Shown here one piece after another: positions 1 to 43,462 of a stretch of 52,203 nucleotides of DNA (position 1 is the stretch's first letter; every line of letters begins with the position of its first letter). The stretch comes from an uncultured Bacteroidaceae bacterium (GTDB taxonomy: Bacteria; Bacteroidota; Bacteroidia; Bacteroidales; P3). The stretch covers positions 1 through 52,203 of the forward strand of contig CAYTCD010000001.1 of NCBI GenBank assembly GCA_964436335.1, in the 5' to 3' direction. Under the pieces are notes generated by a model that worked only from the letters and a program-made list of their open reading frames with translations, was not told where the DNA came from and did no database searches. A program made the position numbers and the translations under genes.

Positions 1-704
1 CGGCCGTAAACCGGCTTCAGGATGCTACCGCCTACCCGTACTATCGGATATACTGTATCGCATATTGTTTTCTTCAGACCCGGAGTCGGTTCCACAGGCT
101 CTTCTGTACATGTTACCGTTGCCTTTACCGTTTCGCTCGTGTTGTCTAAAGCACGCTCTGTAGTGTACGTTATTTCACAGTCTGCATTTACTTCACGACA
201 ATTCGTCACCGTACTCTTACTCCGTTCATAAACAATACTCCACGAAGTACCGCCTTTCTTCAAAGTATATACGGTATCACAAATTGTAATCTTGGTATTA
301 CAGTCTATCTTTGGAATTACACGTTCCGAACTATTATCAAGCGAACGAACTACATCATAGCCAACAACCGAACAATTTTCTGCCAACTGTTGACAATTTT
401 CAACCGTATATTTACCTCTTATGAAAGTAGGATTCCATGTGGTTCCTCCCTTCGTTAAAGTATATATTGTATCACAAACAATTTTGGATTCAACGGGTTT
501 ATTGCCAGTACAATCCAATATCACTTTCACTGTATCGGTTTCACCATGAGCATCCAACGCATGTTCAGTGGCATTGATTACACATGCACTATCAACCTCC
601 CGGCAATTCACTAATTTTCCAGCATCCAAGCGTACCACAACCATTTTACCCAAACCTGCATCAAATTGTCTGGTTACCGCAAACACCGTATCGCAAACAA
701 ACTT
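1..704 (-). repeat. Four-Cys repeat modules of about 66-73 aa (at least 4 units) at the C-terminal-most visible part of the giant ORF
   Basis: Units begin at about 704 (KFVCDTVFAVTR..), 485 (KIVCDTIYTLTKGGTTWNPTF..), 284 (ICDTVYTLKKGGTSWSIVYE..) and 64 (ICDTVYPIVRVGG..). Each has the pattern CDT(V/I)(Y/F) ... NC ... C ... (D/T)C. GC is about 35-38 percent in the three 60-nt lines I counted (241-420), against about 50 percent at 1201-1260. Confidence 0.75.
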
Positions 705-24700: not shown

Positions 24701-27700
24701 TCAAGGTATTCCACATCACCGTATCGATAGATTGTTCCCATACTATCTTCTGACCGCGGTAAGCGTTGAGTTTGATCGTATAAGCGGTATCGGCACACAT
24801 GGTGGTGTCGGGGGTGGTGATATAACCGGCCACCGGAGGCAGATCAATACCTATCTCTACCTTGGCCCTCAAAGTGTCGGCACTGGTGGAGACACCGCCG
24901 GTAAGGTTGATTACCGTAACTTCATATTGTGTTTTGGATACCGGGGCAACATAGAGAGAATCCTTTGTGCCCAGCACACTGCCCGTTGTGAGTTCTTTCC
25001 AACTGTAGGCATAGTTGCCCGAACCGCCCGCCGCATTTACATGCAACAGCACGGTATCACCCAAACAGATGGTGTTGTCCTTGATAACAGCACTGTATGG
25101 CTTATCCATCGTGATGCGGAAAGGTCCGCCCACCACGGTGATCTTAAGGTCATCGGAAGCGGAGCAACCGGCCGAATCGGTGGCGGTAAGCGTAACCACG
25201 GTAGTATTGTAGATACGTTCGCTACCTACGGTAATTCTGCTGTTGTCTGAACCGATGCCGGTACCTTTCCAGAGATAGGTATAAGGTTCTATACCATACA
25301 CTACATCCGCCTGCAAACCAATCACGGTCTTTTCTCCGTACGAGAGGCTGTCGATGTCGGGACCGGCGTTTACAACGGGCGTTTCATATACATGGAAACG
25401 AACCGTATCGGCAGTGGTGCGCGGTTTGGTGCAGACTTCCTTGGCTGTGGCCGTCAGCACATACATATAGTCGCCCGGTTCAAGATCGCTTATATCCAGA
25501 ATCTGCGACGTAGCCCCGTCGATATCCACATAATCATGATACCATTGCAGCGTAACCGGTACGGATGCGTTGCTCAACTTGGCCTTAAGCTGGCGTTTTT
25601 CGCCCGTACAATACAGGTCAAAGTTTTTGTCGATGCTCACATAAGAAGGCGTGCCCTGACGACCGGTTACGGTAAACACATACTGCATGCGGCAACCGTC
25701 GGCAAACGATATCCAGGCTTTTACCGTCTGCTTGGCGGCAGTGGCCACCACACGGTAACTCGTTTCGGTGGAATTGTCTGCCCACGTAAAGTCGATGCCG
25801 GCGGCAACGGTAAGGTCAACCGTATCACCCACACATACCACGGTATCCACATAAACGGGATCGGTAGTGTATTGAACCGTTACATATTGTACTATGTCGC
25901 AAGTATAACCCTCTACCTCGCGGGCAGCATGCAAAGTATAGGTTTCGGGAGAATCGGGCACATTCACCGTCATGCTGTCGGTGGTGGAAACAGTCATGCC
26001 CGAAGGATCTATCCACGTGTAGTTTACATCGTCGTAATGGAGGGCCTTTACCGTTACCGTTCCCGAAGGACATCCAAAGACGTTGCTCGCCACACCCGTA
26101 TTGATAGAGGGAAGAATCCTTACATTCACTCTGGACGGCTTGCTGTTGCAAGTACCCACAGATTCAACGGCGCTGAACCCGTAGGTGCCCGTTGCAAGCG
26201 TGTTTATATTGTACGGATTGCCCTTATAAACGGCATGCTGCAAGGTAAGGTCGTCGAACCAGGTAACCACACCGCCGCGATAGGGTTTTACCTGTAGCGG
26301 CTGACGCGGCGAACCGGCACAATAAACGGTATCGCTGCTCAACATAGGCGGCGCATCGGGTGTGTTGAACGCATAGAGGTCAACCGTATCGTAGGCATAG
26401 CATCCCGTTATGGTGCGGACTGCCAACGGATACGTGCCGTTGGGGATATCGATAAAGTCGGGATTGACGCCGAACTTTTGCGGAACAAAGGCCGAATACT
26501 CAAGCGTGGTGTCGCCCGTGGCATAGATACTGATGATACCGTCGCTGCGGTCGCAGGAAGATGGCACCACGGCATCAATGTAGTCGATTACCGGAACCGT
26601 ACCCACATATACTTCCACCTTCACCGTAGCGCTCTTGCAATTGCCGAATATCTGGTAGAGATAGTATATGTAACGACCCGGTTCGGTGGGGAAAGCCAAA
26701 GAATCGCCCGTATGGACAAGGTTAGTGCAGGTGTAGTCGGAATACCACCTTACTTCTCCTTTCTTGATGGAAGGTCTCAGCAAGAGGTATTCGGGTAAGG
26801 GTTTGTCGTTACAGTAAGCACCGGCATTGGTTACCACCGGATTGGCCGGTGCGTTGGGATCGCGCAGGCTGATTTCTATCTTCTCGCTCTTGCAACCGTT
26901 GTTGTCGATTACCTGCGCAACATACATACCCGCCGGCAATCCATTGATAATGTTTTGCGAAACAGTATCGTTGAAATAATAGGTATAGGGCGTGTAGCCA
27001 CGCGAAGCGGAGAGTGTTATACTACCGTCGGAAGTGGCGCAGGCCTTCGGATTGGTTGACCGTTGGCTGATTACAGGCGATTCCTTCACACCCAGATCGA
27101 TAATCTGCGAAGGCATCGGGTTGGGGTTCACGCATTGGGCAATGATACCCTGCGGGGTAAGGAAGGCCTGGATACGGTCGCCGGGCTGAACGGGATTCAA
27201 TGTAAATACCGAATCGCGGGTGGTGAACCTGCGGGTGGTGTAACCGGTAACCACAATATCCACCTTCTTCTGCAGACCGGTAAGGTTGGTGATAAATTTA
27301 ACCTTGGCAACATCGCCTTGACAAGAGGGTGTATCCACCAGCACCATATCGAAGTAAACCGAATCGATAACATTCAGTGTCATCGGGGCTGAAGTAGAAT
27401 CGGGCGCACAGGTACCGGAGAGATGCAGACGGTATTTGTCGCCGTTTTCGGTTCTGCTTACATTGTAAACCACCAATTGAGCGGTATTCAAGTCGCCATA
27501 TTTGTCGCCGGCCTCGGTAATGCTCTTCCATGTGGAAGATGCCGCATCGTATTTCTGCCAATCGTAAACCAGCTTGTGCCCCGATTCTCTCACCGGGAAG
27601 CGGGCTTCGCCGTTTTCACAAGCAAAGATATTGGGATTCTGCGTGGTAGCCACTGTTTGAGGCAATACACTGATGTGAACCTTGCCTGTTTCCTTACAAC

Positions 27701-30700
27701 CCTTGTCGGTAAAGAGTTCCACGGTATAGGTGCGGTTCTGGTAAGGTTGTGCGATTACCTTGGAACGATAAGACTTGGCATCGGCCCCTACGGTGATATC
27801 GTCTTTGGGCATCCAGGAAATGCTGTCGATATTTTTACCATTTACCGCAAGTTGAACCGGTGTGCCCGGACATACCGAAGTATCGGGTGTGATGGAGGTG
27901 AGGGTGGGCACATCAAAGATATGGATACCCACCTTAGGTGTATTCACCGGATTTTGGAGCGGGCAGGCGTAACCTACCGTTACCTCGCAATAAATATGGC
28001 TGCCATCGGCGGGCAATACATCATAATAGGCAGAACCGTCAAAGCGGGCATCATGCGCATCGTTCACAAACCAACGGTATTGTCTTACCGAACCGGTGTA
28101 GGCATCGGGTTTCACACCCAGACGGAAGCCCTTGGTGGCATTGGCGCAAAGATTGGTGTCGCCCGTAATGACCGGATGACTCAACATGCGTTTGTTCACC
28201 GTAACGGTGATTGTCTTGAACACCGAATCCACACCATCGGAAACCTTGACGCGATAGTAGGTAACCCCTACGGGACTTACGGTGGAGATATGGCTGGTGT
28301 CTTTGGAAACAAAAGCGGTATTGACCTTGGTGTTGGTGTCTTTAGGCTGAGCGGTCCAACTAAAGGTATATTCGCCCGTACCGCCATAGGGATAAACTGG
28401 CAGAAGCACCGTGTCGTTTTCACAAACCACTATGTTCTGGTTGCCATCCACTCTAAGCGGACCACCCTTGATGGAAACCACTTTGGTATCGGTGGCCTGA
28501 CATCCGTTTACATTGGTTGCGGTAAGGGTAAAGGTATAGCGGCTCTTGACGGGAATGGTCTGGGCATAGAGCGAATCCGCGCGGCCGGAAATCAGATTGG
28601 CGGGTGTCCAGCTGTAAATCATTTCAGTGCTTTGACCCGAATCCACTCCAGTGGTAATCAACCGTCCTTGCAAAGTACCCTGACCGTTGTATTCCACAAT
28701 GGTATCCACACCGGCATCTATCCGGGGATTGTGCCATGCCTTCACCACAAGGGTATCGGTAGGTTCGGGTGTAAAGGCCGGACAAGCATAACCGGTGGTA
28801 ATCAAAGCCGACACCTTCATGCCGTCGGAAACAGCCGTCTTGTAGGTGGTTGATTTTCCGCTCTGTTTGCTTTGGCCGTTCACCAACCAGTTTATAGTAG
28901 CCTGAGCGGCGAGATTGTTCTGGGTGCGAAGCCCGAATTCAACCTGTGTACCTTCGCAGACAGGAAGCGCGGTGGCACTGTAAACTGTACCGTAGGCATG
29001 CTGCAGATGATTGATATACAAAGTTGCATCCCCATATAGATAAGAGGGAGTGTTGGAATAAACCGTATCGCGTTTACCCGTTTTTTCGGTAACACCGCTT
29101 ATCTGGCAACGATAACGGTATTGATTCATACCGTAATTGAGCGGCGTGATATCGGGATTGGTGGCCGCATTCTTACCTATATACAATACCGAGGTGAATT
29201 CACCGCTCTGAACTATCGAATACGGGTTGGGTCTGGGCAGACTGCTGATATCAATCCAATTGCCATCGCCCTGATCCACTTGCCAATCAAAAGAAAGATA
29301 GGCACCGGAAGCCTTAACGGTAAAGGAAGCCTCGGAACTGTCGCAGACCGTTGTGGATTGAGGATGGTTGAGAACACGTACATCGGTAAACACGTTCACC
29401 CAAACCGTATCGGACACTTCGCAACGCCAAGGTTCGGTGAGCTTTACCAGATAGCGGGTAGAGGTACGGGGCGAAGCCGTTACATCGGTACCCGTACAGG
29501 TGTTGAGCGAAGCGCAAGGTGTCCAGGTATAGGTGGCTTCTTCGCTACCGCCCGTAGCCCACAGATCCACACTTTCACCCAAATTGATATCCTGATCGTC
29601 TATTACATTGATAACAGGTTCGGTCTTTACTTCAAAATGAATCACATTCGAACGTTTGGGACGGCAGTCCACACATTTGATGTCCGAAATAAGGAGAAGT
29701 TCAATGCTGTCGCCGTTACGCAACGAATCCAGACGGATATAGTCTTGCGAACCGGAAAGAATGGTATCGTTGTTGAGCAACCAGATAAATACAGGTCTGC
29801 TTCCCTGGTTCACATAAGAAGAACTGATACGTACCGGATAGCCTTCACAGATAGTCAGATCGCTGAGGCTTTGGTCGATATCGGAAGCGATGGTAACGTT
29901 TACCGTTTTCTTTTCATCCACCGCGGCGCGGATAGGTTTGGAAACATAGGGGTTCGCATCCACACATTCCTCGGAAGAATAAACGGCCACCGTGATGTTG
30001 AAACCATCATCCACACCGGTAAGCAAGGCCACGGAATCGAAATCCTGATCTTCAATCGGATTTCCGTTCACACGCCATTCAAAGCGGGCACTGTCGCCCC
30101 AGCCGTAACCGGACACCTTGAACACGGCCGTATCGCCGTAACACATTCTTTCAGCAGGCATGTTGGGCACCACCGAGTCGATAACGGCGAACACCTTGAC
30201 CGGAATACGGGGTGTAACAACTGCCGTAGCCACCGGAAGATCGTCTGAACCGGCACAACCCGGATCGATCGTAACAGTATAGACCCCTCCCATTTTGGTC
30301 GTGAAACCAGGGCGGAAAGTATTCATTTCGCGCGAGGTCCATCCATCGGGTCCCCTCCACGAATAAGTGGCCGAAGGTACGCTGTCTGTCTTAAGGAAGA
30401 GCGTATCGCCGATACAGATCATCGAATCGGCATACACATGATAACGCGTGGTGTCGCAAGGAACACCGCGCTTGGCAAAACCGTCGGATACACCGCCCGT
30501 ATAAAGCGGATAGAATAGACCCTCTACCTGCATGGTGATATAGCCATCGCCGATACCGCCCATATAAGGCCAAGGCTTAGGTTTGGGCATATCGATAGAG
30601 AAATGGCCATCGCCGATACCGCCTATATATTGCGGGGCCGGACGAGCGGGCATAGCGGCCGTATAATGACCGTCTGCAATACCCCCAAGATAATTGGCAG

Positions 30701-31754
30701 GCGGACGAATCGGCATGGCAACCGTATGATGACCATCCCCGATACCGCCCACAAAAGGAGGTCCGGGAAGATTAGGCATGGAGGCCGAATGATGACCGTC
30801 TCCGATACCGCCCACATAGTTGGCAGGTGGACGAATCGGCATGGACCCCGTATGATGACCGTCTCCGATACCGCCCACATAGTTGGCAGGCGGACGAACC
30901 GGCATGGACCCCGTAATATGGCCATCGCCGATACCCCCTAAATAAGTAGGCTTATAGAACATCGGCGTTCCGGCCGTACTATGACCATCGCCGATACCGC
31001 CTAAATAAGTGGGTTTATAGAACATCGGCGTTCCGGCCGTGCTATGACCATCGCCGATACCGCCTAAATAAGTGGGTTTATAGAACATCGGCGTTCCGGC
31101 TGTGGTATGTCCGTCACCGATACCCCCTAAATAGGTGGGTTTATACATTATCGGCATGGATGCTGTACTATGACCATCTCCGATACCGCCCAAGAAAGTA
31201 GGTTTATGGACAATCAGCATGGTCACCGTGCTATGACCATCCCCAATACCCCCCAGATAGGTGGGTTTATGGATAATCGGCATCGCCGCTGCACTATGGT
31301 GATCTCCGATACCGCCCTTATACGGAGCATTCCGTTTGGGCATATCGGAAGAAGCCACCGCCATACCGCTTCCTCCCACTGCATTGGGCCAGGCGATACG
31401 GTTGGCCGTGCGGAAAGGCGCTACATCAAAGCCGGCCGTATCCACCCCATTGGGTATATAGGTCGGGTTCGCCTCTATATCCACATCCACAGGAGATGCA
31501 GGCACTATATCCAGTTCCTGCGGAGAAAGCAAGGGTTCGTCTAAGGTGATTTCGGAGAAAACAGATTCCGGAACAGGTGTTGAAACAGAAAGATAGGGCA
31601 AAACCACAGGAAGGGAAGCGGCCTCAGCCGGGCTTTCCCGATCGGAACGCGAAGCAGAAAGCCGTGCCACGGTAGCGCCGCCCACGGCAACGCCCGCCAA
31701 CAGCAGACCCGCTATCACAATGTTCCGTATGTTTAATCTTCCCGAAGTTTTCAA
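1..31754 (-). CDS. Giant secreted cell-surface repeat protein (SprB-repeat / Ig-like multidomain adhesin), at least 10,584 codons, 3' end beyond the left window edge
   Basis: The reverse frame whose codons begin on coordinates equal to 2 mod 3 is open from the TAA at 31767-31769 down to coordinate 3. Hand translation stays in one phase (codon GGC at 31316 and codon CTG at 20 are both 2 mod 3). No listed reverse ORF inside 1-31750 is in this phase, and an internal stop would have produced a listed long ORF; it is unlisted because no stop lies in the window. The translation gives repeated 75-90 aa modules with conserved Cys, Gly-Asp and Trp positions, for example DDLRYNWYRNG (about 11330) and HYQWQITADGGATWTDIAGD (about 10500). 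The preferred start is TTG 31754, giving MKTSGRLNIRNIVIAGLLLAGVAVGGATVA. Alternatives are GTG 31718 and the first in-frame ATG at 31364. Confidence 0.9.
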   Translation of the reverse strand, partial: MKTSGRLNIRNIVIAGLLLAGVAVGGATVARLSASRSDRESPAEAASLPVVLPYLSVSTPVPESVFSEITLDEPLLSPQELDIVPASPVDVDIEANPTYIPNGVDTAGFDVAPFRTANRIAWPNAVGGSGMAVASSDMPKRNAPYKGGIGDHHSAAAMPIIHKPTYLGGIGDGHSTVTMLIVHKPTFLGGIGDGHSTASMPIMYKPTYLGGIGDGHTTAGTPMFYKPTYLGGIGDGHSTAGTPMFYKPTYLGGIGDGHSTAGTPMFYKPTYLGGIGDGHITGSMPVRPPANYVGGIGDGHHTGSMPIRPPANYVGGIGDGHHSASMPNLPGPPFVGGIGDGHHTVAMPIRPPANYLGGIADGHYTAAMPARPAPQYIGGIGDGHFSIDMPKPKPWPYMGGIGDGYITMQVEGLFYPLYTGGVSDGFAKRGVPCDTTRYHVYADSMICIGDTLFLKTDSVPSATYSWRGPDGWTSREMNTFRPGFTTKMGGVYTVTIDPGCAGSDDLPVATAVVTPRIPVKVFAVIDSVVPNMPAERMCYGDTAVFKVSGYGWGDSARFEWRVNGNPIEDQDFDSVALLTGVDDGFNITVAVYSSEECVDANPYVSKPIRAAVDEKKTVNVTIASDIDQSLSDLTICEGYPVRISSSYVNQGSRPVFIWLLNNDTILSGSQDYIRLDSLRNGDSIELLLISDIKCVDCRPKRSNVIHFEVKTEPVINVIDDQDINLGESVDLWATGGSEEATYTWTPCASLNTCTGTDVTASPRTSTRYLVKLTEPWRCEVSDTVWVNVFTDVRVLNHPQSTTVCDSSEASFTVKASGAYLSFDWQVDQGDGNWIDISSLPRPNPYSIVQSGEFTSVLYIGKNAATNPDITPLNYGMNQYRYRCQISGVTEKTGKRDTVYSNTPSYLYGDATLYINHLQHAYGTVYSATALPVCEGTQVEFGLRTQNNLAAQATINWLVNGQSKQSGKSTTYKTAVSDGMKVSALITTGYACPAFTPEPTDTLVVKAWHNPRIDAGVDTIVEYNGQGTLQGRLITTGVDSGQSTEMIYSWTPANLISGRADSLYAQTIPVKSRYTFTLTATNVNGCQATDTKVVSIKGGPLRVDGNQNIVVCENDTVLLPVYPYGGTGEYTFSWTAQPKDTNTKVNTAFVSKDTSHISTVSPVGVTYYRVKVSDGVDSVFKTITVTVNKRMLSHPVITGDTNLCANATKGFRLGVKPDAYTGSVRQYRWFVNDAHDARFDGSAYYDVLPADGSHIYCEVTVGYACPLQNPVNTPKVGIHIFDVPTLTSITPDTSVCPGTPVQLAVNGKNIDSISWMPKDDITVGADAKSYRSKVIAQPYQNRTYTVELFTDKGCKETGKVHISVLPQTVATTQNPNIFACENGEARFPVRESGHKLVYDWQKYDAASSTWKSITEAGDKYGDLNTAQLVVYNVSRTENGDKYRLHLSGTCAPDSTSAPMTLNVIDSVYFDMVLVDTPSCQGDVAKVKFITNLTGLQKKVDIVVTGYTTRRFTTRDSVFTLNPVQPGDRIQAFLTPQGIIAQCVNPNPMPSQIIDLGVKESPVISQRSTNPKACATSDGSITLSASRGYTPYTYYFNDTVSQNIINGLPAGMYVAQVIDNNGCKSEKIEISLRDPNAPANPVVTNAGAYCNDKPLPEYLLLRPSIKKGEVRWYSDYTCTNLVHTGDSLAFPTEPGRYIYYLYQIFGNCKSATVKVEVYVGTVPVIDYIDAVVPSSCDRSDGIISIYATGDTTLEYSAFVPQKFGVNPDFIDIPNGTYPLAVRTITGCYAYDTVDLYAFNTPDAPPMLSSDTVYCAGSPRQPLQVKPYRGGVVTWFDDLTLQHAVYKGNPYNINTLATGTYGFSAVESVGTCNSKPSRVNVRILPSINTGVASNVFGCPSGTVTVKALHYDDVNYTWIDPSGMTVSTTDSMTVNVPDSPETYTLHAAREVEGYTCDIVQYVTVQYTTDPVYVDTVVCVGDTVDLTVAAGIDFTWADNSTETSYRVVATAAKQTVKAWISFADGCRMQYVFTVTGRQGTPSYVSIDKNFDLYCTGEKRQLKAKLSNASVPVTLQWYHDYVDIDGATSQILDISDLEPGDYMYVLTATAKEVCTKPRTTADTVRFHVYETPVVNAGPDIDSLSYGEKTVIGLQADVVYGIEPYTYLWKGTGIGSDNSRITVGSERIYNTTVVTLTATDSAGCSASDDLKITVVGGPFRITMDKPYSAVIKDNTICLGDTVLLHVNAAGGSGNYAYSWKELTTGSVLGTKDSLYVAPVSKTQYEVTVINLTGGVSTSADTLRAKVEIGIDLPPVAGYITTPDTTMCADTAYTIKLNAYRGQKIVWEQSIDTVMWNTLSGSADSNRIKGSASTTYYRATVHNGVCPVDVSPILKVKVYEPISNQITGPENTLCPEAEDIRITGNTVVSGGDGTYTYQWQYSASNNASAFLPAPGDTGSASYTWSGSIDYTRYFRRVVYSDGCPFISSVVTVAVYDDSHIGRINGENYVCIDSIGYMSASNTKMETYLWQVASDTLAKPVDWQDIAGAVSSSYNTDPVNDTLHYRVIGSKNGCLPDTTPVFTIIPTEPLPTSVSIVVDTTAACIGDWLVFKVDSVTYPGNKPVYTWFVNGAPLTLPLKQAKDTLAYASKDGRTFYVRSLKPGDSVQCGMASSIGCVTEPLAMSNAIAPTIYLPLVTMAEDDLTFCRRDTVALHADSAIYHTWYYKGTSDKAMLPLVYAPHMLDSYDSVVKVSPIEETTYYVEGIDRHGCKGLDSVTLTPEPLMSVVTPDTLLCAGSKLALRAIPVSTRGVTYSWIEVPSDSTTPTTLPTQLNRNTLTGIAPLDSLTYYIYTINTPRCTFSDTIRVRVEQNTTPTVRIDYTGDVTGDTAHIIECQKVENFFHYISEYGGSAPKYTWYFNGEKVGTDSLFSDHYPYMVDQSTIYVEMESAKRCVTTRTVKSAQMKIHYVKMPEALVSINSNKGLTVCPNEELVLFQAHAPSYDTGIFQWYVKYADSSKFEYVYTGDSLVSRFSTGDQVYCIYVAQDSCIKYSPKRSNTLTFQNYKLWKPTVDIIRLDAGREGKGDTVCEMTEVLFEARLGDAGSDYRFTWLVDGKEAGTPNSLKLTYSDFLADAGDTYRQSTVTARLETKHTCAVPSNINVDDTVVYVRPRKLLGVTIGQDMLMACNSLKKEPVVFTHVYGPLTVSGNAIANNCNNTDWNTGAVSQQTITGNGSVSAKATSVWSYNYAMFGLTSRTEITHYSHINYAVYFENGNLAVYESGVRIGAFGSYTASDELTVEIADSVIRYLKNGVVFYTSQQRDSVGTYRAGFSIYSTCNHCGHAYHDVYSAINSATIEYRASGIVFGSVVVEPPVNTPDYDWKVNGVSFEFGNGKDSLIDHKYRFEENDVVSLLVKSNDVCMERPAAESNPITVRIPDPGDFLRLDDTAYVCLGDSVWLVAGGAISYEWTLAVDCDPDAIHDSSLLVWPKKTTTYRVTGANQDGCTDFKRIVVVVFELPKPNLGPDREVCIGDSLYFSVTAGKEPDSVTNWIYRTEWNFITEGTVYDTLLSQSGNRDSIVERIGKVALPLDSELDNAIRFVAQKSGTLVATMINKLSDCYATDTMKLSVYPLPEVNFTDDTLFVCISKNLDLKDSAYDAAGKSAYRYTWTPASRLTKGTANGSYMIFNSPDTGLYTYFVDVVTPKGCHSYDTVLILNIKQELTAVSTLNRRTVCEGENPVFILEGDWWLPDATATLYRNNKVAGTYTVGREGKSQCDTVTYTGPIANGDVFYFNIVSKNTCLVQKQVNSNRDTLRVVYNTHLASVPDSLCAGSPLVLRAQPVQDSDVHYTWTAFRSERSVDTTIYFEHRNIGSDTNTITVSMPRSPSYFCVEANGGSGCVTRDTVFVGVVKADTLWAELEQELDSCQSPSPQQPAWRSSGSLVYLNNGQIIRDGSTGSGWQELESSTVLSGNFLMRYSVSGKEAPAMVGINYQGRAHWHHSWWYGNWWCNYDADHAFYLSWDNGKPYLQIYERGGQVGTYGEWSAGDILFIIREGGYVSYYKNEVLLRRVKERSPEQPFTPEVSLHTPGTAIDAIHYVELPQIKLSNRAGSISAPMSHKWYRNGKLVSSDSALYSRTIGFIDGDTVVYQVSGMTKCDGLQTVSDTLVIEAPMGYHPVFLTLEHDGQKCENSGYMVRSTVVNRTPSIPDSALRYNWYRGNMLVAAGVRADSMYFDSVGVKEFVWAQVYVDSSYAICAFNSNHNPVPSPKLYLPVTPNGVMGVNIDVYPGEKVCLLSEVRFNATQVISGMSDAGLSPVTEWYLNDKLVFTGQTYVTDSLQDGDSVYAIITASAETSCLDTNRKQTRVVHMEVMPAPILEAYQDTVVKYNSLVDIWSMVTDNWEPGLTYEWYPAFDVQAPWKFTDSAVRVRSKIDHYYTVQAKNKIGCAGNQAGVHVEVLICPQFVLRGSGTDACAGDTSYIYLQVQGFRPYTNLYIWQISHDGGNTWSDVEIDGTEFAQKVGQNDVTLVIPQTKAEYDKAYTMFRCLAVATDSRLDCDTVYSHELYLDVVEYTKPTTHITGDTVVCRNTPVSFTAKGASNPGDYYQWFRGGRMIGGSGNTLYLDSVEGQEKITLVLTVRNNQNRCVDRMRVSDTLEIMANPKPYLTMSPDTVINKGDDALVYGHVEGGQAPYKFHWNGLPSTTLRTPDQDSSLTRNQYYTTRYTLTVTDSNGCSNKGSVMVRVADTCLIQPAIYGPNTICLDSIGTFEAFITGGLANSDLRLSWTSVPPIDTTILMATGYNYNVRAFKPGTYKITLTVSDSSEVVTKVCPLSQRAFSVSKDVTVYPAKHLSVKIDSLMPVCTGTSSDLSAKAYMDGELTAIPVFYTWYSMTDSAISPRMLQKGLYNTCHITNWELSQYIIVEAVLGGDECETGIVAYDTLRPVVNLTPSLVEARGLYIKNQEPCRFDTAAIGLTALFGQADTMGLSYSIDGGKTWSAGNYFKPVDEGTYVPAVKAANGCSFVADYTIHISLPKPKHLPNLQVSGDGGYCTHSPMDALIAYNGDEEAIIGWYADTAGQIALSEGAIGQDSIRLVLPDSVRSTVGTYTYYAIQQAGNCKSEPVELTIDIRERDTVGGFHLRYVQRYNCNKDGQPLMVDVTAEHDTINVTGEYRWYTIPASTVESTEKSALVSVSDSIRVYASFTYINTCSNKEFTLWSDTIPVNVVVLYNSIGEGGAICVGDSAKAENTLAYLIESDEFSYRWEAFYPDTTQENGGMWNVAPGKVDDKDYTVHYSDLLPVEGSTNGRRELRIRRIKSVDTCSNSSNELLYYYEIPAEPSIELSVPEVCTGKTVTAIVTGKNLGDNPLVNWYLNDSLVKTSGNLNENLGVVDSGDLVRVVVYPDYTKVPCPLIDSVMAESVASVTSAIAGKIWIEIADTLFCGTENTFTAHYNTEYSDNPRYRWYHNGVLVPAANNRASYTATVAEGDSVSVTVFAANECPASDSASSPKVGVGRKAKAVSAWAEVENATAAGDSLVLKAYGGDTYRWFDNDTRDVRGLSVTGGEFLFTVTVSKAGFCDTVLTVNTKIPSATLSLSTVCLGWETTGTISGENLGPRPSFDWYVNGVFVGHTDSVYTATVGMLNHEDSVSVVVHVDLAGMGVPQGAAPDSLVLYGIAEVHDRIEGKVWIESSDTLFCKPENTFTARYNVEYSDNPRYRWYHNGVLVPAANNGASYTATVAEGDSISVTVFASNNCPASDSANSEPVAVYKGRSHKVSVNAVDTLLCFNDTMVLRAEGGINYRWDDGSTDSIRRVVATNNKTIYTVTVQGEGFCDTTLQVSVAAHKFPSNTAPARRSIILCGNDTARLAVDLDPGLKVLWSTGDTTTTVDVKVPYRKKDTVFYLNYTDQYGCTYGPDSVRVHTLDSRPLSFTSSSIGLPDSITWRETFDAVTTVEPADKDSIYYVWYINGTYWKSGYGMKDFLSLKGSDFPLSSPYVFQVILQDNGYCNLNRQDTLTDTIKVLQKRFAGINIQSNSTIEGDTLRVCVSENTRMFAATSNAGPVAADGSHKWYIEWFLNDKMVHVGDTVNFGHLTVGSKIYAVLHVDTTEYNYAANDPVTSRVLYVVSIPQPKVEVTLSLKVDTICSTQDYEVRANVVNGGENPQYRWYVNGFLVNVGDEKGNSVPLDAPYLSLLNIKQLSMEEGINYDIVCWVKSSLPCVADSVRNKDLATLVIFPSDTLKVVITPTIDTACLYENGDVVVNMHAEVYGQAKGFNVKDPSLQWYIDGKPIAGATDKDLHYVTRNLTGDELFSVRAFSKYRCTSNSSIVSERSKVFLYPFRAEAGPDDTVYNYADYTVHGDTVTGGVPHWKTGGDGYFLNADTLHATYVLGAGDRKADGIYLYLEVNNKFGCYAIDSMYLSISHCEDYTWQTDLQAMTVCHDQAVTMANKVVAKPTATDAVQTARYMLIALPAGTYPADTLAVIDSVAFGWSGIVDTTRTLVLTGSINSMDCLYTDTIPVTVLPKNEIKVMLTQDGADTCQQHEAKHVNWEIDGSNMPLHWNLNGGTLNHVHCSNMQRVFTSNYGEANTTMRYVATGKERTSTVGFSYEGNNTGNNDTRLDYGFYFTEGRVGVYNNGLVGEYLPGETYLAGDVFTVIRRDHKVYFYVDQRNSHKLMQVIDEPETGWGRRVRFAIGSYDVGSSYNDIVYVNEPAVKVSDSIEFGPLTGKLSYKWWMNDTVVSTASTWDAERFNLQHGDRLKLEVTGITACDTVRATDSITVSKTIDYEPIYVTLVRDSAGTCENDAFTFTATVHNLPAEISQDDLRYNWYRNGQALVKGTKNNVYVIDSVKIGDYVYAEAYITGTTCVLNTENNPAPSHRVTFNLRENKPLEITLVKKTKMDPAICPGSEIHLQAIVNNGGRYEISWYVNDSLYAKGENLNLVPDQDVHIHALVKAYNEDVCLDTTLVSSDTVVVRQALVPVVRAWADTVVNRGSRVALRGEVIENTDAAVRYAWTSNCGGVANASQLNTEITAHNSCMYYLRAYNSLGCVSEPDTVEVNVYDCPSLNSIGVPASVCEGDSATLNITMNGYRPGTNHYQWQITADGGATWTDIAGDARFTATTTATGSLLGISKTDFALDGRNDVRFRCVVTATDSNLMFCPSVITSEIRLTVDTAARQIPTIKLTGPTGICATSTVMSAIYTAQLTPGYEVMWKQNGSGVLEYDGNDHRRGYSVRNGDKVIGVLYGASPCVNRLQISDTLTVTLYQQPTLTAWKDTTVAFNTAAELNALLSNGTGTATYSWTPADKVVNAGTASTATVNLTKSTLFTVSAADSLSCAAEAKVRVIVSDTCLRSVDLVGPESVCVNKTATFTGLVTGGGVLGKYDISWKVSPALDNNDGEEEMNNGGVPVLSFSNATPGDYTVTFTVTDTSAAVRRYCYENGIVLSASKTLHIPVPDTLKVSLAADKDSVCDGTAIILAANATLNSVVAGDAVNYAWYRIRDGRTSYIGSTSPTLRVPDAENNDRYYVEISTKEGCQTDEKVRSNEVPVTVYPVPAPLKPYQVYAHSHLSCVDDTAYIRIDANGATGLLFSIDSGATWQADPMFRNLSEGTYHVMVKGEEGCEAEGVQTVHIEVQPDYRYESLHLSADTVAACVGQALVDVKAYKTDDLGGYIAWFADSTLKKVLAVSAEDADTSSFAPAASIGKIPGLHTFYAARISGECHGKPVPVNYMVSSCGVILEPALDTICPDEEADFYILADAVTRDNAQSWIYQYSADGSFNDAVDVSAAGKIDTIAVSRAGYYRIAYTALSGSVTYSNTARLVVGSYAKLTGKVFVEYPAGSNAVAMCPGGTAGVLVGNVGAGYTIYWPDSSTGNIYRRTSDTTFDVSLKVVSLVGGCAVDTSVTVNVLSRNFVKLGASDTTICLLADETAELVLPRISDSGNVFPPYTNFIWTLNGTTVVAGKYNEQTLNQYPALRVRPQEGVNHYVARAYSLRDCPSVTDTFTVTVHRLVFNLAQDSMAVCEGKTVQLNLPAADSLSINSTVRTAFTSPLQVGPITGDSNLIITLYKGICQSADTLRLHHIPADSLNASLQADVTDCSKTISSAMVWKPGAMGYDAATGTLSHSGSNGWQTNFAADSLRTAAEINYTVSGKEGAMVIGLEYAGAATGLWSKPYSIYLSANGYGDAKLFYLYENGWEVNYSAAGQYRAGDVFTIRRDNAHISYYLNGQLLRSVEEPQAKASVRMLVSASSYNRGGVIDAMQVANASSAKIGTSLYHRYRNLRYQWYVNGIPVSQDSILDTDRHMLVNGDTVVWKVTSYSFCDTLVSADTLVIEGASTYPSIGLNLQQTTQSLCKGESATFKATLTRLPAGLDPSTVRYNWYVNGQQVRKGVIASTYTRQNVQPGDYVYAEAYVWGKYCILNHEDNPACSNIIYLNVDTAETTHFGIEAQPDAEICAGESITFTAMPEGLQHMPQISWYVNGLKVSEGVSLTLQNPADGAEVYAVAIVDADENCAGGDTLTSQSLTLTVHPVPVVDAGTYVKVDRGTRVDLNGQVISGATSVMKYNWAPRTEISGTASTYVVAQNSRTYTFTAVNAYGCEGQDTVSVAVEECPYLAGQSALNAPAVCPGDSLDFTLSVGGYIPAVKAYQWQVSADGTTYSDVSEPLYVNKGTRLHIPSVSLAMNGNYYRAVIIPDLNQTTGCDTLYSLPFRLSVNTDVRNTDLSLSGPATVCADAQEAVYTLTAATRAGDRFFWYLNGILIAQDVKTLRLDPQQLGHGGLLKVEWQTAEDACPAGIRLTDSMEVNVSSPLWITAGNDTVVVKNAQAMLDAWLTGGTAPYVYHWNASVIDPDAASTLTGPMTATTLFTVTGTDANGCEAQAEVQVTVADSCIENVKIARKESEESQQICQDSLVEFKVLVSGGMPGNYTIAWNVTPSLPQTDFVPSQNNGQLWLRPSVAGTYTVTVEVRDTSALAAVHCTAEQLVQRDEITLEVKAKNRLEVRLVQPDSVCADDADALSLQAKAFVNGVETTDVSFHWYRIRGGMVHDLGLGGNIFNPSDKLDDDNYFVNVTATGECLENATVASDTVNSVIYPMPPAIQPSNVIYTPARLCSNDTASIEISVPMYTPSASLSRWAQTLQYSIDGGTTWQASALFKPLPEQSPYQIVIKNQYGCWNDKNKIAVQRSPQALDAWLEAGPNDTIMENETYRVHGDTVVAQGAPQWTTSGSGTFDNANILHPIYTPSAADYAAGSVMLYLSVNSTNECPLKDSLQLFIIRCDSYYIERDKSDSLACTNSPLTLRAALRSANGVSVPSAIYQWNQRRINSFINIHADTGYSSEWTYQHERDYTYYLVVTTENGCVLNDTIRIKMQEPPMAKGKFKVHYPNGENALSMCPGQTAQIEITDNTGLNTYIWPDSTVSDGLSNNTFNVTAWQDTAIPVRIIGVAGCSNDTVVNITVEHSFVVSPNTPADTVICVGDSISLPLLTGELVFPPIVSYRWTTPEGLPIDSGDYNAQRGLTLLPEKDTTVYFGYVATQAMCWSDPPVKFTVVRSHYSFDLGADTLICHNSSIALDMPENTKSYVLNGLSVNTGTKAASKITAGPFVNDTLLTVTGTSYIGCQHTDTIRISVLPEPDLRFIIAEGDACAMQPITIGLDSIHSNAGKNSQATYTYSWQLSTASLGTVTGTDSIISVVAGTRDSLANVSVTVTNQLGCTYTRQQDIPIIVWDSLPILRDTTVCEGSRISLVDFYGLIGQGYMIQWTGNTAGSSVMPDVYSVITAVDTTNHYHYKVTTSNNRCVYSDSAFIRVVPKPHLTPIEDVYSCTLTSVRLAYPGIGRYSACQWTIIDTVPDPQGSRMSNYNAISSFFYPSASLLANGGVAYAIFTVRGVDECAHVEVSDTVQLTFSPKIDVSVQGASQCLGASDAQVKLTIKGTNVDHYEWNTSTSDTVHNAVGLLYLNPGGDTNVIYHDTVKAWNQEGCMATLNYTVQFVGSPRVIPDTVEICYHDTAYIEVANPGSTVPRWFELGTGKNVANGNNVKLAPTKTTTYTIYPLRGTVSCGGSDRDTVTVKVKERLLVETTGDTNVCEATTVGVGVKNVSKAISRYQWIDSADGNVVSTDSAFMANVTENKTFYLTVWNDEEGCMDYDTLHLTYGGNIYKLSVYDTTILAGSSLDVYVSGPEPATSACMYPWFNHTDTVEICRQDSIFPVVVNKDTRFVLYLRGGEHECYPTLNVHVRELYLNDTSVCDYCITEVGLKSDTTDNVSYVEWRYADTMHFSTGHINPVDYCFTYADTVYNRSETYTDSSRYHAFVIPFQGTQKERDTINISPFCDSVFSQPYINLEYDGKYQDLDIYREYLRWNKVDIVCKEAGEGKKFVCDTVFAVTRQFDAGLGKMVVVRLDAGKLVNCREVDSACVINATEHALDAHGETDTVKVILDCTGNKPVESKIVCDTIYTLTKGGTTWNPTFIRGKYTVENCQQLAENCSVVGYDVVRSLDNSSERVIPKIDCNTKITICDTVYTLKKGGTSWSIVYERSKSTVTNCREVNADCEITYTTERALDNTSETVKATVTCTEEPVEPTPGLKKTICDTVYPIVRVGGSILKPVYG
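4272..4490 (-). repeat. SprB-type repeat module (SIDGG.TW variant)
   Basis: Translation: LCSNDTASIEISVPMYTPSASLSRWAQTLQYSIDGGTTWQASALFKPLPEQSPYQIVIKNQYGCWNDKNKIAV. Confidence 0.5.
7027..7527 (-). other. Non-Ig insert module, copy 4 of 4
   Basis: Translation includes NGWQTNFAADSLRTAAEINYTVSGKEGAMVIGLEYAG...FYLYENGWEVNYSAAGQYRAGDVFTIRRDNAHISYYLNGQLLRSVEE. Confidence 0.55.
8913..9107 (-). repeat. SprB-type repeat module (SIDSG.TW variant)
   Basis: Translation: SCVDDTAYIRIDANGATGLLFSIDSGATWQADPMFRNLSEGTYHVMVKGEEGCEAEGVQTVHIEV. Confidence 0.5.
11677..12197 (-). other. Non-Ig insert module, copy 3 of 4
   Basis: Translation includes MRYVATGKERTSTVGFSYEGNNTGNNDTRLDYGFYFTEGRVGVYNNGLVGEYLPGETYLAGDVFTVIRRDHKVYFYVDQRNSHKLMQVIDE. 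Confidence 0.55.
14533..14756 (-). repeat. Internal segmental duplication, copy B
   Basis: The peptide is GKVWIESSDTLFCKPENTFTARYNVEYSDNPRYRWYHNGVLVPAANNGASYTATVAEGDSISVTVFASNNCPASDS. The duplication is also visible in the antisense shadow ORF 14046..15719, where AFGYRGCIR...SVARIIAVF appears twice. Confidence 0.85.
15295..15518 (-). repeat. Internal segmental duplication, copy A
   Basis: These 224 nt align without indels to 14533-14756, with 31 mismatches by my count (about 86 percent identity). The offset is exactly 762 nt (254 codons). The peptide is GKIWIEIADTLFCGTENTFTAHYNTEYSDNPRYRWYHNGVLVPAANNRASYTATVAEGDSVSVTVFAANECPASDS. Confidence 0.85.
16707..16907 (-). repeat. SprB-type repeat module (SIDGG.TW variant)
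   Basis: Translation: PCRFDTAAIGLTALFGQADTMGLSYSIDGGKTWSAGNYFKPVDEGTYVPAVKAANGCSFVADYTIHI. Confidence 0.5.
19488..20015 (-). other. Non-Ig insert module, copy 2 of 4
   Basis: Translation includes GSGWQELESSTVLSGNFLMRYSVSGKEAPAMVGINYQG...YLSWDNGKPYLQIYERGGQVGTYGEWSAGDILFIIREGGYVSYYKNEVLLRRVKE. Confidence 0.55.
21712..22168 (-). other. Non-Ig insert module, copy 1 of 4 (lectin / LamG-like beta-sandwich suspected)
   Basis: Translation includes NCNNTDWNTGAVSQQTITGNGSVSAKATSVWSYNYAMFGL...INYAVYFENGNLAVYESGVRIGAFGSYTASDELTVEIADSVIRYLKNGVVFYTSQQ. It is paralogous to the modules at 19488, 11677 and 7027. Confidence 0.55.
26370..26555 (-). repeat. SprB-type repeat module (divergent)
   Basis: Translation: SCDRSDGIISIYATGDTTLEYSAFVPQKFGVNPDFIDIPNGTYPLAVRTITGCYAYDTVDL. 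Confidence 0.5.
26865..27041 (-). repeat. SprB-type repeat module
   Basis: Translation: CATSDGSITLSASRGYTPYTYYFNDTVSQNIINGLPAGMYVAQVIDNNGCKSEKIEISL. This matches the remembered SprB-repeat pattern C..(S/N)DG.I......G..PY.Y.........L..G.Y.v.v.D.nGC. Confidence 0.6.
30435..31316 (-). repeat. 14 tandem in-frame 63-nt (21-aa) GGIGDGH repeats in the giant ORF
   Basis: Unit first codons (GGC/GGT) fall at 31316, 31253, 31190, 31127, 31064, 31001, 30938 ... 30497, exactly 63 nt apart (31001, 30623 and 30497 verified directly). Example units are GGIGDGHSTAGTPMFYKPTYL, GGIGDGHHTGSMPIRPPANYV and GGIGDGHFSIDMPKPKPWPYM; the last unit is degenerate (GGVSDGF...). Confidence 0.9.
31665..31754 (-). other. 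N-terminal signal peptide or signal-anchor of the giant protein
   Basis: A basic n-region (KTSGRLNIRN) is followed by a 19-residue hydrophobic stretch, IVIAGLLLAGVAVGGATVA, and then RLSAS. Whether it is cleaved cannot be judged by eye. Confidence 0.5.
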
Positions 31755-41726: not shown

Positions 41727-41746
41727 GGAAAGTAAGGGATTTTCGT

Positions 41747-41754
41747 TATATTTG
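41747..41754 (+). promoter_or_regulatory. Possible -7 box TATATTTG
   Basis: This is a perfect TAnnTTTG, 23 nt upstream of the ATG at 41777. No -33 element was seen. Confidence 0.3.
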
Positions 41755-41776
41755 CCTGTTTTTTTCTATAGTAACT

Positions 41777-42679: not shown

Positions 42680-42686
42680 CAAGTTA

Positions 42687-43442: not shown

Positions 43443-43462
43443 CAGGCAGGCTCAAACAGCAT

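What the first reader, a model, noticed from the sequence alone, without database searches (positions are those of the whole stretch)
30435..31316. Fourteen exact 21-residue GGIGDGH repeats form an unrecognised N-terminal array in the giant protein
From codon GGC at 31316 the ORF encodes 14 consecutive units of exactly 21 residues, with 63-nt spacing every time and no indels. The pattern is GGIGD(G/H)H-x4-(M/T)P-x3-(K/P)P-x-(Y/F)-x. Examples are GGIGDGHSTAGTPMFYKPTYL and GGIGDGHHTGSMPIRPPANYV; the last unit degenerates to GGVSDGF. The array follows a Pro/Ser/Val-rich linker of about 110 residues after the hydrophobic N-terminus, and precedes the first Ig-like module. The Gly-Gly-x-Gly-Asp core is reminiscent of calcium-binding GGxGxD (RTX) turns but is not identical to them. 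The near-invariant His after GDG could ligate a metal. Strict unit length argues for a regular solenoid or stalk rather than a disordered spacer. I do not recognise this as a named repeat family.
Basis: seen in the sequence. Interest (0 to 1): 0.6.

Follow-up and report, generated by a model that had tools for sequence, protein, structure and literature searches.

The report
Giant-protein repeat paired with FGE-fold genes
The 14 exact 21-residue GGIGDGH units at the start of this 10,000-residue Bacteroidales surface protein are real and conserved, and they belong to an undescribed repeat family that is almost always encoded next to a secreted FGE-fold protein lacking the FGE catalytic cysteines, which suggests a two-part module of unknown role.

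Summary
Residues 147-440 of the giant ORF (window 3..31754, minus strand) are 14 units of exactly 21 residues. A degenerate 20-residue unit precedes them and the first Ig-like module follows.

The array is not an artefact. Thirteen independently assembled orthologues from uncultured Bacteroidales carry 9-14 units, always spaced 21 residues, with three position-specific closing units.

No Pfam, NCBIfam or PDB sequence matches the array, and it is not RTX. The His after GDG is replaced by Phe or Asn in distant orthologues and by Trp, Phe or Tyr in small relatives, so it is not a family-wide metal ligand.

The same repeat class, often with period 21, opens small T9SS type-A cargo proteins of Chitinophagaceae and others. 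Every assessable repeat gene, including this one, lies beside a homologous secreted FGE-fold protein without the FGE cysteine pair. This window has two such genes.

AlphaFold gives only weak support for a regular beta structure. My best reading is a capped beta-rich repeat rod that serves as the cognate partner of the FGE-fold proteins. Binding is inferred, not shown.

The scan found this family earlier on other genomes (e1-4332406, e1-4285514). I re-tested the pairing claim here and it holds.

The parts
30435..31316 (-). Array of 14 units of exactly 21 residues (aa 147-440). Consensus G-G-[IFLM]-[GASN]-D-G-[HF]-x-[TS]-x-x-M-P-x-[ILV]-x-x-P-x-[YF]-[LVM]. The last three units are position-specific cap units.
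   Evidence: conserved in orthologues
31317..31421 (-). Conserved lead-in (aa 112-146): the APFRxAxxxxW motif plus a degenerate 20-residue unit, GGSGMAVASSDMPKRNAPYK. Likely the N-cap of the array.
   Evidence: P113, G127 and G128 are invariant in A1
31422..31649 (-). Pro/Ala/Ser/Val-rich linker that is poorly conserved (aa 36-111).
31650..31754 (-). N-terminus (TTG start) with a basic n-region and a 19-residue hydrophobic segment, IVIAGLLLAGVAVGGATVA. It is either a Sec signal peptide or a signal anchor; whether it is cleaved is undecided.
30195..30434 (-). First Ig-like module (CxGDTLFLxTDS...YxWxGPDGWTS), homologous to the stem modules of the grappling-hook protein GhpA.
   Evidence: pLDDT 73-86; PDB 9flp_A, E 2.1e-108, all stretches within this module
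3..30194 (-). Remainder of the giant ORF. The whole ORF is 10,584 aa within the window and its 3' end runs off the contig. It consists of tandem Ig-like / SprB-like / PKD-like modules.
31803..33443 (-). FGE-fold partner gene B (546 aa). It has a signal peptide, a family-specific N-domain and an FGE-sulfatase-fold domain without the catalytic Cys pair. It ends 48 nt upstream of the giant gene.
33552..35444 (-). FGE-fold partner gene A (630 aa), a paralogue of B (33% identity).

Best explanation
The array is the local member of an undescribed Bacteroidota repeat family. Its core is aromatic-x-G-G-x-[GASN]-D-G-[H/F/W/Y/N]. The period is constant within a protein and ranges from 20 to 32 residues between lineages.

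Shown:
- The array is conserved as a strictly 21-residue repeat of 9-14 units in the orthologous giant proteins of a clade of uncultured gut and rumen Bacteroidales.
- The array ends in three position-specific units that join the first Ig-like module.
- Related repeats open small T9SS type-A cargo proteins directly after the signal peptide.
- Genes with these repeats lie directly beside a gene for a homologous secreted protein. That protein has a Trp-rich N-domain and an FGE-sulfatase fold that lacks the FGE cysteine pair. This window has two such genes.

Inferred:
- The units stack into a regular beta-rich rod that is solenoid-like or beta-roll-like. The invariant Gly-Gly-x-Gly-Asp-Gly turns would lie in register, the position-7 aromatic or His side chains would form a ladder, and there would be a cap at each end.
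- This rod, or its repeated motif, is the cognate binding element for the co-encoded FGE-fold proteins. The two together would form a docking or maturation module at the N-terminal end of a GhpA/SprB-like Ig-repeat fibre.

Where the two proteins meet is not known. It could be the periplasm during export, or the fibre tip.
For: - Periodicity and uniqueness of the array.
- Orthologues: 12 of 36 genomes of the same family carry the array in ORFs of 8,400-13,300 aa. Thirteen named MAG loci have 9-14 units, always spaced 21.
- Column conservation over 156 units: G1 154, G2 156, D5 152, G6 152, Y/F20 143.
- The cap units and the junction are conserved.
- Family spread: 113 hits at E<=1e-3 among 1.84 billion representatives. 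Most are 300-350 aa proteins with a signal peptide, 5-8 repeats and a Por_Secre_tail domain. Many of these have period 21.
- Gene pairing, repeat to partner: 7 of 7 assessable small repeat genes have the partner 0-42 nt upstream, while their other neighbours differ. All 13 giant orthologue loci have two partners upstream, and L027 and L028 have one. Both repeat hits in a 400-genome phylum sample are adjacent to a partner.
- Gene pairing, partner to repeat: in 15 of 28 partner-positive sample genomes, the gene next to the partner (downstream in 14, upstream in 1) opens with a signal peptide plus GG-motif unit(s).
- The partners are homologous over their full length at 31-33% identity.
- The partners have the FGE fold, E about 1e-7 to SUMF1, FGE and EgtB structures.
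- No conserved Cys pair was found among 58 distinct partners.
- The beta pattern repeats with the unit in both AlphaFold models.
Against: - No physical interaction was tested. Gene adjacency alone cannot separate binding from enzyme-substrate or chaperone relations.
- AlphaFold confidence is low for this array (pLDDT 25-56) and only moderate for a small homologue (55-69). The fold is therefore unproven and the array could be disordered when alone.
- The partners carry no T9SS C-terminal domain and no lipobox. They may be confined to the periplasm and never meet an exported array.
- 11 of the 28 partner homologues in the phylum sample, mostly the weakest scorers, have unrelated neighbouring genes.
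- The period differs between lineages (20-32 residues), so no single geometry is conserved.
Confidence: 0.45

Rival explanations
1. Enzyme-substrate module. The FGE-fold proteins are periplasmic modifying enzymes using a chemistry other than formylglycine formation. Each GGxGDG unit would be a modification site, with the conserved Asp or the position-7 residue as target, in the way that FGE, EgtB and OvoA act on short motifs.
For: Tight operon-like pairing of the two genes. The FGE-sulfatase fold family includes true enzymes (FGE, EgtB and CalU17 are hit). The minimal form is a single unit right after the signal peptidase site (L052 and L053), which looks like a recognition tag. The partners are secreted but carry no export domain, which fits action in the periplasm.
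Against: There is no conserved Cys pair and no conserved His or Cys in the FGE domain across 58 partners. The conserved residues in that domain coincide with stretches that also align to solved FGEs, and from my own knowledge they are the structural FGE motifs. The repeat has no CxPxR-like motif, and its only invariant side chain is Asp5. Position 7 varies among H, F, W, Y and N.
Confidence: 0.15
2. Autonomous metal-binding stalk. The array is a Ca2+-stabilised or His-metal-stabilised beta-roll or solenoid spacer, working as RTX or MpIBP-type repeats do, and the neighbouring FGE-fold genes are functionally unrelated to it.
For: The Gly-Gly-x-Gly-Asp-Gly core has an invariant Asp. The array is His-rich, 19 of 294 residues against 1.6% in the rest of the protein. 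The period is strict and caps are conserved. The beta pattern is regular in the models.
Against: There is no match to the RTX model or to any Ca-binding repeat model. His is not conserved in distant orthologues or in small relatives. The family-wide pairing with the FGE-fold gene would remain unexplained.
Confidence: 0.2
3. Repeated short linear motifs in a flexible region. The units are not a folded rod. They are tandem peptide epitopes, each bound separately by an FGE-fold protein, and the spacing is constant only because the units arose by duplication.
For: AlphaFold confidence is low. Single-unit versions exist. Unit duplications are recent, 86-95% DNA identity for units 4-6. The Bacteroidales units are Pro-rich. 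From my own knowledge, FGE binds an extended peptide in a groove.
Against: There is not a single indel among 156 units in 13 species. The cap units and the junction to the Ig module are position-specifically conserved. The beta pattern is periodic in both models.
Confidence: 0.15
4. Assembly artefact, or a meaningless low-complexity tract.
For: Units 4-6 are nearly identical, so their exact count could have been collapsed or expanded by short-read assembly. The genome is a 142-contig MAG.
Against: The same array is found in 13 independent assemblies, with conserved caps and an intact reading frame. The ORF is open for 10,584 codons.
Confidence: 0.02

Closest known systems
RTX nonapeptide beta-roll (GGxGxDxUx; Pfam HemolysinCabind) and Ca2+-bound beta-solenoids of giant adhesins such as MpIBP
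   Same: A Gly-rich turn with an invariant Asp, repeated at a fixed period, in a secreted giant adhesin-like protein. A regular beta-rich rod is expected.
   Different: The motif is GGxGDG with one turn per 21 residues, not two GGxGxD turns per 18. It does not match the Pfam model. It is N-terminal, not C-terminal. It is coupled to an FGE-fold gene. Ca2+ binding is untested.
GhpA grappling-hook protein of Aureispira (PDB 9flp) and the gliding adhesin SprB
   Same: The Ig-like modules that follow the array are homologous to GhpA stem modules (E 2.1e-108). Both are giant Bacteroidota surface-fibre proteins. In GhpA the N-terminus is the distal, functional end (bioRxiv 10.1101/2024.01.29.577165).
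   Different: GhpA shows no match to the array; all 39 matched stretches lie in the Ig module. GhpA and SprB end in a T9SS sorting domain, whereas three complete orthologues of this protein do not. The paper describes GhpB/GhpC (PorP/PorE homologues) downstream of ghpA and no FGE-fold genes.
PorK/GldK/GldJ: non-catalytic FGE-fold lipoproteins of the T9SS ring and gliding track, which bind PorN/GldN
   Same: Bacteroidota-specific reuse of the FGE fold, without the catalytic cysteines, as a protein-binding scaffold tied to secretion and surface adhesins (PMC12421860, abstract).
   Different: The partners here have no lipobox. They do not match the NCBIfam GldJ or GldK models. They carry a different N-terminal domain. 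They are paired with a repeat protein, not with PorN.
FGE / pFGE (SUMF1 / SUMF2) peptide recognition
   Same: The same fold. From my own knowledge, FGE binds a short linear motif of its client protein in a groove, and pFGE has the fold without the catalytic cysteines.
   Different: The client motif here has no Cys or Ser target and no CxPxR. The partner has an extra Trp-rich N-domain with invariant W61, D74 and K81.
Cohesin-dockerin scaffolding (a functional analogy only)
   Same: A tandem array of like units on a large surface protein could recruit several copies of a co-encoded partner.
   Different: There is no sequence or fold relation, and the stoichiometry and binding are untested.

Membership tests
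RTX / HemolysinCabind beta-roll | Tandem nonapeptides GGxGxDxUx that match Pfam PF00353 | tested here: not met
   hmmscan of the array and of the N-terminal 685 aa found no RTX hit at E<=1. The period is 21 with one GGxGDG per unit.
RTX / HemolysinCabind beta-roll | Ca2+-dependent folding | not testable with these tools
   Needs biophysics on the expressed segment.
TANFOR N-terminal domain of large Bacteroidota proteins | Match to an NCBIfam TANFOR-domain model (I recall TIGR02542; not checked here) | tested here: not met
   The NCBIfam scan of the N-terminal 685 aa returned 0 families at E<=1.
T9SS cargo (type A or type B C-terminal domain) | C-terminal Por_Secre_tail or CHU_C sorting domain | tested here: not met
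   The window copy is cut at the contig end. The complete orthologues in G016, G007 and G004 show no CTD by Pfam, and G016 and G007 show none by NCBIfam. Their C-termini end in Cys-rich VCDTIYD... repeats. The genome itself does have SprA and at least 34 type-A cargo proteins.
GhpA/SprB-like Ig-repeat fibre | Tandem Ig-like modules homologous to the GhpA stem or to SprB repeats | tested here: met
   PDB 9flp_A at E 2.1e-108 with 39 stretches. Pfam Ig_7 at 1.8e-22, and SprB weakly.
Undescribed GGxGDG-repeat / FGE-fold-partner module (seen earlier in this scan) | Tandem aromatic-x-GG-x-x-D-G units with a constant period near the N-terminus | tested here: met
Undescribed GGxGDG-repeat / FGE-fold-partner module (seen earlier in this scan) | An adjacent same-strand gene for a homologous secreted FGE-fold protein without the FGE Cys pair | tested here: met
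   Two such genes lie at 31803-33443 and 33552-35444. The pairing holds in 7 of 7 small relatives and in 13 of 13 orthologues.
Undescribed GGxGDG-repeat / FGE-fold-partner module (seen earlier in this scan) | Physical or functional interaction of the two proteins | not testable with these tools
   No complex prediction or experiment was available.
Formylglycine-generating enzyme (for the partner genes) | Catalytic Cys pair after the RGGS[FW] motif | tested here: not met
   No conserved Cys pair in the 5-sequence alignment or in the 58-sequence alignment. PDB matches cover only the central structural motif.
GldJ / GldK / PorK (for the partner genes) | Match to the NCBIfam GldJ or GldK equivalog models, and a lipoprotein signal | tested here: not met
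   No NCBIfam family at E<=0.01. There is no lipobox Cys; the mature N-terminus is a conserved ANN[IV]x[IV].

The most novel reading that the evidence does not exclude
The GGxGDG repeat and the cysteine-less FGE-fold protein together form a previously unrecognised, phylum-wide two-component system of Bacteroidota surface proteins. In this reading the N-terminal repeat is a tag or scaffold that is read by a dedicated FGE-fold receptor. In this clade it has expanded into a 14-site platform served by two receptor paralogues. It could anchor, mature or arm a giant fibre that has no T9SS sorting domain of its own, which would amount to a new route for attaching or loading giant adhesins.
Probability: 0.3. 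Interest if true: 0.8.

Novelty: new variant of a known kind. Interest (0 to 1): 0.6.

Why it matters
Giant Ig-repeat proteins are among the largest genes in gut and rumen Bacteroidales, and their ends are where function is expected, whether binding or anchoring. This one opens with a repeat that no curated database describes.

The same repeat is widely reused in small T9SS cargo proteins of other Bacteroidota, always beside a cysteine-less FGE-fold protein. That gives a concrete, testable pair of proteins. If they bind, this would be a new recognition module for Bacteroidota surface proteins and a second non-enzymatic use of the FGE fold after PorK/GldK/GldJ. If the partner turns out to be an enzyme, it would be a new protein modification.

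The pairing could also help explain how a 10,000-residue protein without a recognisable T9SS sorting domain is handled. Finally, the family deserves a Pfam/NCBIfam model, which would improve the annotation of the more than 100 representative clusters found here.

Tried and rejected
- Pfam, NCBIfam and PDB sequence searches of the array and of its profile gave nothing significant. The thiovarsolin (E 0.0066) and HAMP_N3 hits fall far below their cut-offs and were rejected.
- The search for related loci with the single protein found nothing. It worked with an alignment.
- AlphaFold2 of window aa 100-530 with a 13-row alignment gave low confidence for the array.
- I tried to deepen the alignment with in-register 8-unit windows. 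This failed because MAFFT aligned the overlapping windows by their true offset, so that alignment was not used.
- AlphaFold2 of the small homologue P0118 gave only moderate confidence in the repeats. The Foldseek search matched only its FN3-like and CTD parts, so no fold assignment could be made for the repeat.
- I asked whether the DUF3078 gene upstream of the FGE pair belongs to the module. It is not conserved in four orthologues, so I rejected that idea.
- I asked whether the giant protein has a T9SS CTD. None was found in three complete orthologues. The genes downstream of the G016 orthologue are a type-A cargo protein, a C69 peptidase and a PKD/CHU_C protein, and they look like ordinary neighbours.
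- I asked whether longer partner homologues carry a CTD, which would place them outside the cell. None did.
- Two literature searches for the motif or for FGE-T9SS repeat pairing found no description.
Full report
**The observation.** The window is one whole contig of a 1.8-Mb, 142-contig MAG that is 87% complete. Its largest feature is an ORF on the minus strand, 3..31754. It is 10,584 codons long, starts at a TTG and runs off the contig at its 3' end.

Translation shows the following layout:
- a basic, hydrophobic N-terminus (aa 1-35);
- a 111-residue linker rich in Pro, Ala, Ser and Val;
- a conserved APF..W motif with a degenerate 20-residue unit;
- 14 units of exactly 21 residues (aa 147-440, window 30435-31316).

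The motif GG..D[GH] occurs 14 times at a step of exactly 21. It occurs nowhere else in the other 10,144 residues, where 0.31 hits are expected from composition. Tandem Repeats Finder sees the 63-nt period. Units 4-6 are 86-95% identical in DNA and units 7, 8 and 10 are 81-87% identical, so the array has grown by recent duplication.

**Is the array real and conserved?** The 294-residue segment finds the same array in 12 of 36 other genomes of the same family (10 of 18 in the same genus), each time in an open frame of 8,400-13,300 codons. The search for related loci names 13 orthologous loci. All come from uncultured Bacteroidales MAGs of rumen, gut and mouse-gut origin.

In all 13 the units number 9-14 and the spacing is 21 without a single indel. 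Over 156 units the conserved positions are G1 (154), G2 (156), D5 (152), G6 (152) and Y/F20 (143).

The last three units are conserved position by position across species..PKPWPYM, then GGIADGHxxxQVxGxFYPLYx, then GGxSDGFAKRxxPCDTT. The 'degenerate' last unit is therefore a conserved junction to the first Ig-like module. This pattern argues for a folded, capped domain and rules out an assembly artefact.

**Comparison with known families.** The array has no significant Pfam, NCBIfam or PDB sequence match, either as a single sequence or as a profile. It does not match the RTX model, and the N-terminal region does not match TANFOR.

The His after GDG is not a family feature. Position 7 is H in 97, F in 39 and N in 8 of 156 units. 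The more distant orthologues L023, L024 and L026 use mostly Phe. Small relatives use W, F, Y, H or N. His may matter in this lineage, where there are 19 His in 294 residues against 1.6% elsewhere. It cannot be the essential ligand of the family.

**A wider family.** A full HMMER scan of 1.84 billion representative proteins found 113 hits at E<=1e-3. Apart from fragments of the giant orthologues, most hits are proteins of 300-350 aa built as follows: a signal peptide, then 5-8 'GGxGDG[WFYH]' units, an FN3-like domain and a T9SS type-A sorting domain. Sources annotate some of them as Ferruginibacter or other Bacteroidota proteins.

In many of these the period is again 21, for example GGIGDGWHTGVNTTVPNTIFI in P0118. 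Other lineages use periods of 20, 22, 23, 26 or 32. The repeat has no Pfam or NCBIfam model in these proteins either.

**The partner gene.** Directly upstream of the giant gene, on the same strand, lie two paralogous genes (33552-35444 and 31803-33443). Their products have a signal peptide and a weak FGE-sulfatase match.

From the repeat gene to the partner:
- For seven small repeat proteins with upstream sequence available, the gene immediately upstream is a 463-509-aa protein on the same strand, 0-42 nt away. The other neighbours differ in each case.
- Four of the seven carry PF03781 on record. The other three are homologues by alignment or hhalign, with probability 99.9-100%.
- All 13 giant orthologue loci have two partner genes upstream, and the 26-residue-period loci L027 and L028 have one.
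- Both repeat hits in a 400-genome phylum sample are adjacent to a partner.

From the partner to the repeat gene:
- 28 of 400 sampled genomes have a partner homologue at E<=1e-20.
- In 15 of the 28, the gene next to the partner (downstream in 14, upstream in 1) opens with a signal peptide followed by one or more GG-motif units. Sometimes there is a single unit right after the cleavage site.
- Two of the 28 are ambiguous. Eleven, mostly the weakest scorers, have unrelated neighbours.

The partners share 31-33% identity over their full length. This includes a Trp-rich N-domain with the pattern ANNIxI...F.ISWxNSWR...NxDxAWIFVKYR. Their central region matches solved FGE, SUMF1 and EgtB structures at E about 1e-7. 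Across 58 distinct partners there is no conserved Cys pair, and W61, D74 and K81 of the N-domain are invariant. The partners are not GldJ or GldK by NCBIfam, and they have neither a lipobox nor a T9SS sorting domain. The DUF3078 gene further upstream is not conserved, so the conserved unit is partner-partner-giant.

**Structure.** AlphaFold2 of aa 100-530 with 13 orthologues modelled the Ig-like module well (pLDDT 73-86). The array was modelled poorly (pLDDT 25-56), with a faint pattern of three or four short strands per unit. A small homologue with a 42-row alignment gave pLDDT 55-69 in the repeats. There, one strand of 10-11 residues plus short bridges at the GGxGDG turn repeat with the unit. 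Foldseek matched only the FN3-like and CTD parts of that model.

The conserved Pro13 and Pro18 of the Bacteroidales units fall at about the same places as Asn12 and Asn17 of the Chitinophagaceae units, which would fit corners of a coil. This is my inference. A regular beta-rich rod is therefore plausible but not demonstrated.

**The rest of the protein.** The profile that includes the first Ig-like module hits the cryo-EM structure of the Aureispira grappling-hook protein GhpA (9flp_A) at E 2.1e-108. All 39 matched stretches lie in the Ig module and none in the array. GhpA is a heptameric T9SS substrate whose N-terminus is the distal hook and whose C-terminal sorting domain is at the cell (bioRxiv 10.1101/2024.01.29.577165).

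Three complete orthologues of the present protein lack any recognisable T9SS domain and end in Cys-rich repeats. The genome itself has SprA and at least 34 type-A cargo proteins. It therefore remains open which end of this fibre is at the cell, and how the fibre is exported.

**Interpretation.** My best-supported reading (about 0.45) is that the array is a capped, regular repeat domain that acts as the cognate element for the co-encoded FGE-fold proteins. That would make it a docking or maturation module at the N-terminal end of a GhpA/SprB-like fibre.

The rivals are:
- an enzyme-substrate relation (0.15), weakened by the lack of catalytic residues and of a target residue;
- an autonomous Ca2+/His metal-binding stalk (0.2), weakened by the non-conserved His and by leaving the pairing unexplained;
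- tandem linear motifs in a flexible region (0.15), weakened by the absence of any indel and by the conserved caps;
- an artefact (0.02).

**Novelty.** I found no curated model, no solved structure and no paper that describes the repeat or its pairing with the FGE-fold gene. The scan has met the same family on two other genomes (e1-4332406 and e1-4285514) and on this same stretch (e1-4158734).

- an independent test of the pairing in both directions;
- the non-conservation of His;
- the conserved caps;
- the GhpA homology of the Ig-like modules;
- the absence of a sorting domain in complete orthologues.

I rate it a new variant of a known kind, namely a tandem-repeat domain of giant surface proteins, with a realistic chance that the two-gene module is something new.

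Noticed in passing
window 3-30434 (-); PDB 9flp_A: The Ig-like modules of the giant protein are homologous to the stem modules of the Aureispira grappling-hook protein GhpA (E 2.1e-108, 39 matched stretches). This gives a solved structural template for the body of the protein.
   Followed up: partly
L031, L032 and L094 (orthologues in G016, G007 and G004): Complete orthologues of the giant protein (10,625-13,303 aa) have no recognisable T9SS type-A or type-B sorting domain and end in Cys-rich repeats of about 75 aa (VCDTIYDITTVPGTFPWDP...). How such a protein is exported or anchored is unexplained.
   Followed up: partly
L095 (G016:C11:181000-197000); own genome contig C28:13636-13869: In G016 a 1,017-aa borderline type-A cargo protein, a C69 peptidase and a 3,222-aa PKD/CHU_C (type-B) protein follow the giant gene. 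G004 has ORFs of 1,024 and 582 aa in the same places, and G007 has a 3,194-aa CHU_C frame ending about 15 kb downstream of its giant gene. A 3,207-aa CHU_C frame sits on another contig of the own genome and may be the missing downstream neighbourhood.
   Followed up: partly
window 30939-31127 (-): Units 4-6 are 86-95% identical in DNA (three consecutive 63-nt copies), a tract that could vary in length between strains or be miscounted by short-read assembly. Another first-stage note (e1-4158734) also flagged it.
   Followed up: partly
window 879-30248 (+): A chain of long open frames (up to 1,558 aa at 6909-11585) lies antisense to the giant gene. They are most likely shadow ORFs of the repetitive Ig-module coding sequence and not genes.
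   Followed up: no
window 36980-40789 (+): A 1,269-aa protein with a CBM_4_9 carbohydrate-binding domain and a T9SS type-A sorting domain, transcribed divergently from the DUF3078/FGE/giant gene block.
   Followed up: no
window 35785-36741 (-): A DUF3078/DUF481 protein lies upstream of the FGE-fold pair on the same strand. No homologue was found at the corresponding place in four orthologous loci, so it is probably not part of the module.
   Followed up: yes
window 40791-46021 (+): Housekeeping genes: NAD kinase, a DUF6089 outer-membrane beta-barrel protein, and a BamA-type Omp85/POTRA protein (43439-46021).
   Followed up: no
L090 and L091 (G292:C1 and G292:C4); L089 (G299:C1): Some partner homologues are longer. 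Two carry a second, more canonical FGE-sulfatase domain (RLPTEAEWEFAA.GG ... GGSWY..EYDCR) at the C-terminus. One 1,437-aa protein continues into a large repeat-rich extension. None has a T9SS sorting domain.
   Followed up: partly
L052, L053 and L055 (phylum sample): Some proteins encoded after a partner gene carry only one to three units right after the signal-peptide cleavage site, with the variant core GGxGRGD or GGIGSGG. The minimal form of the element may therefore be a single N-terminal tag.
   Followed up: partly
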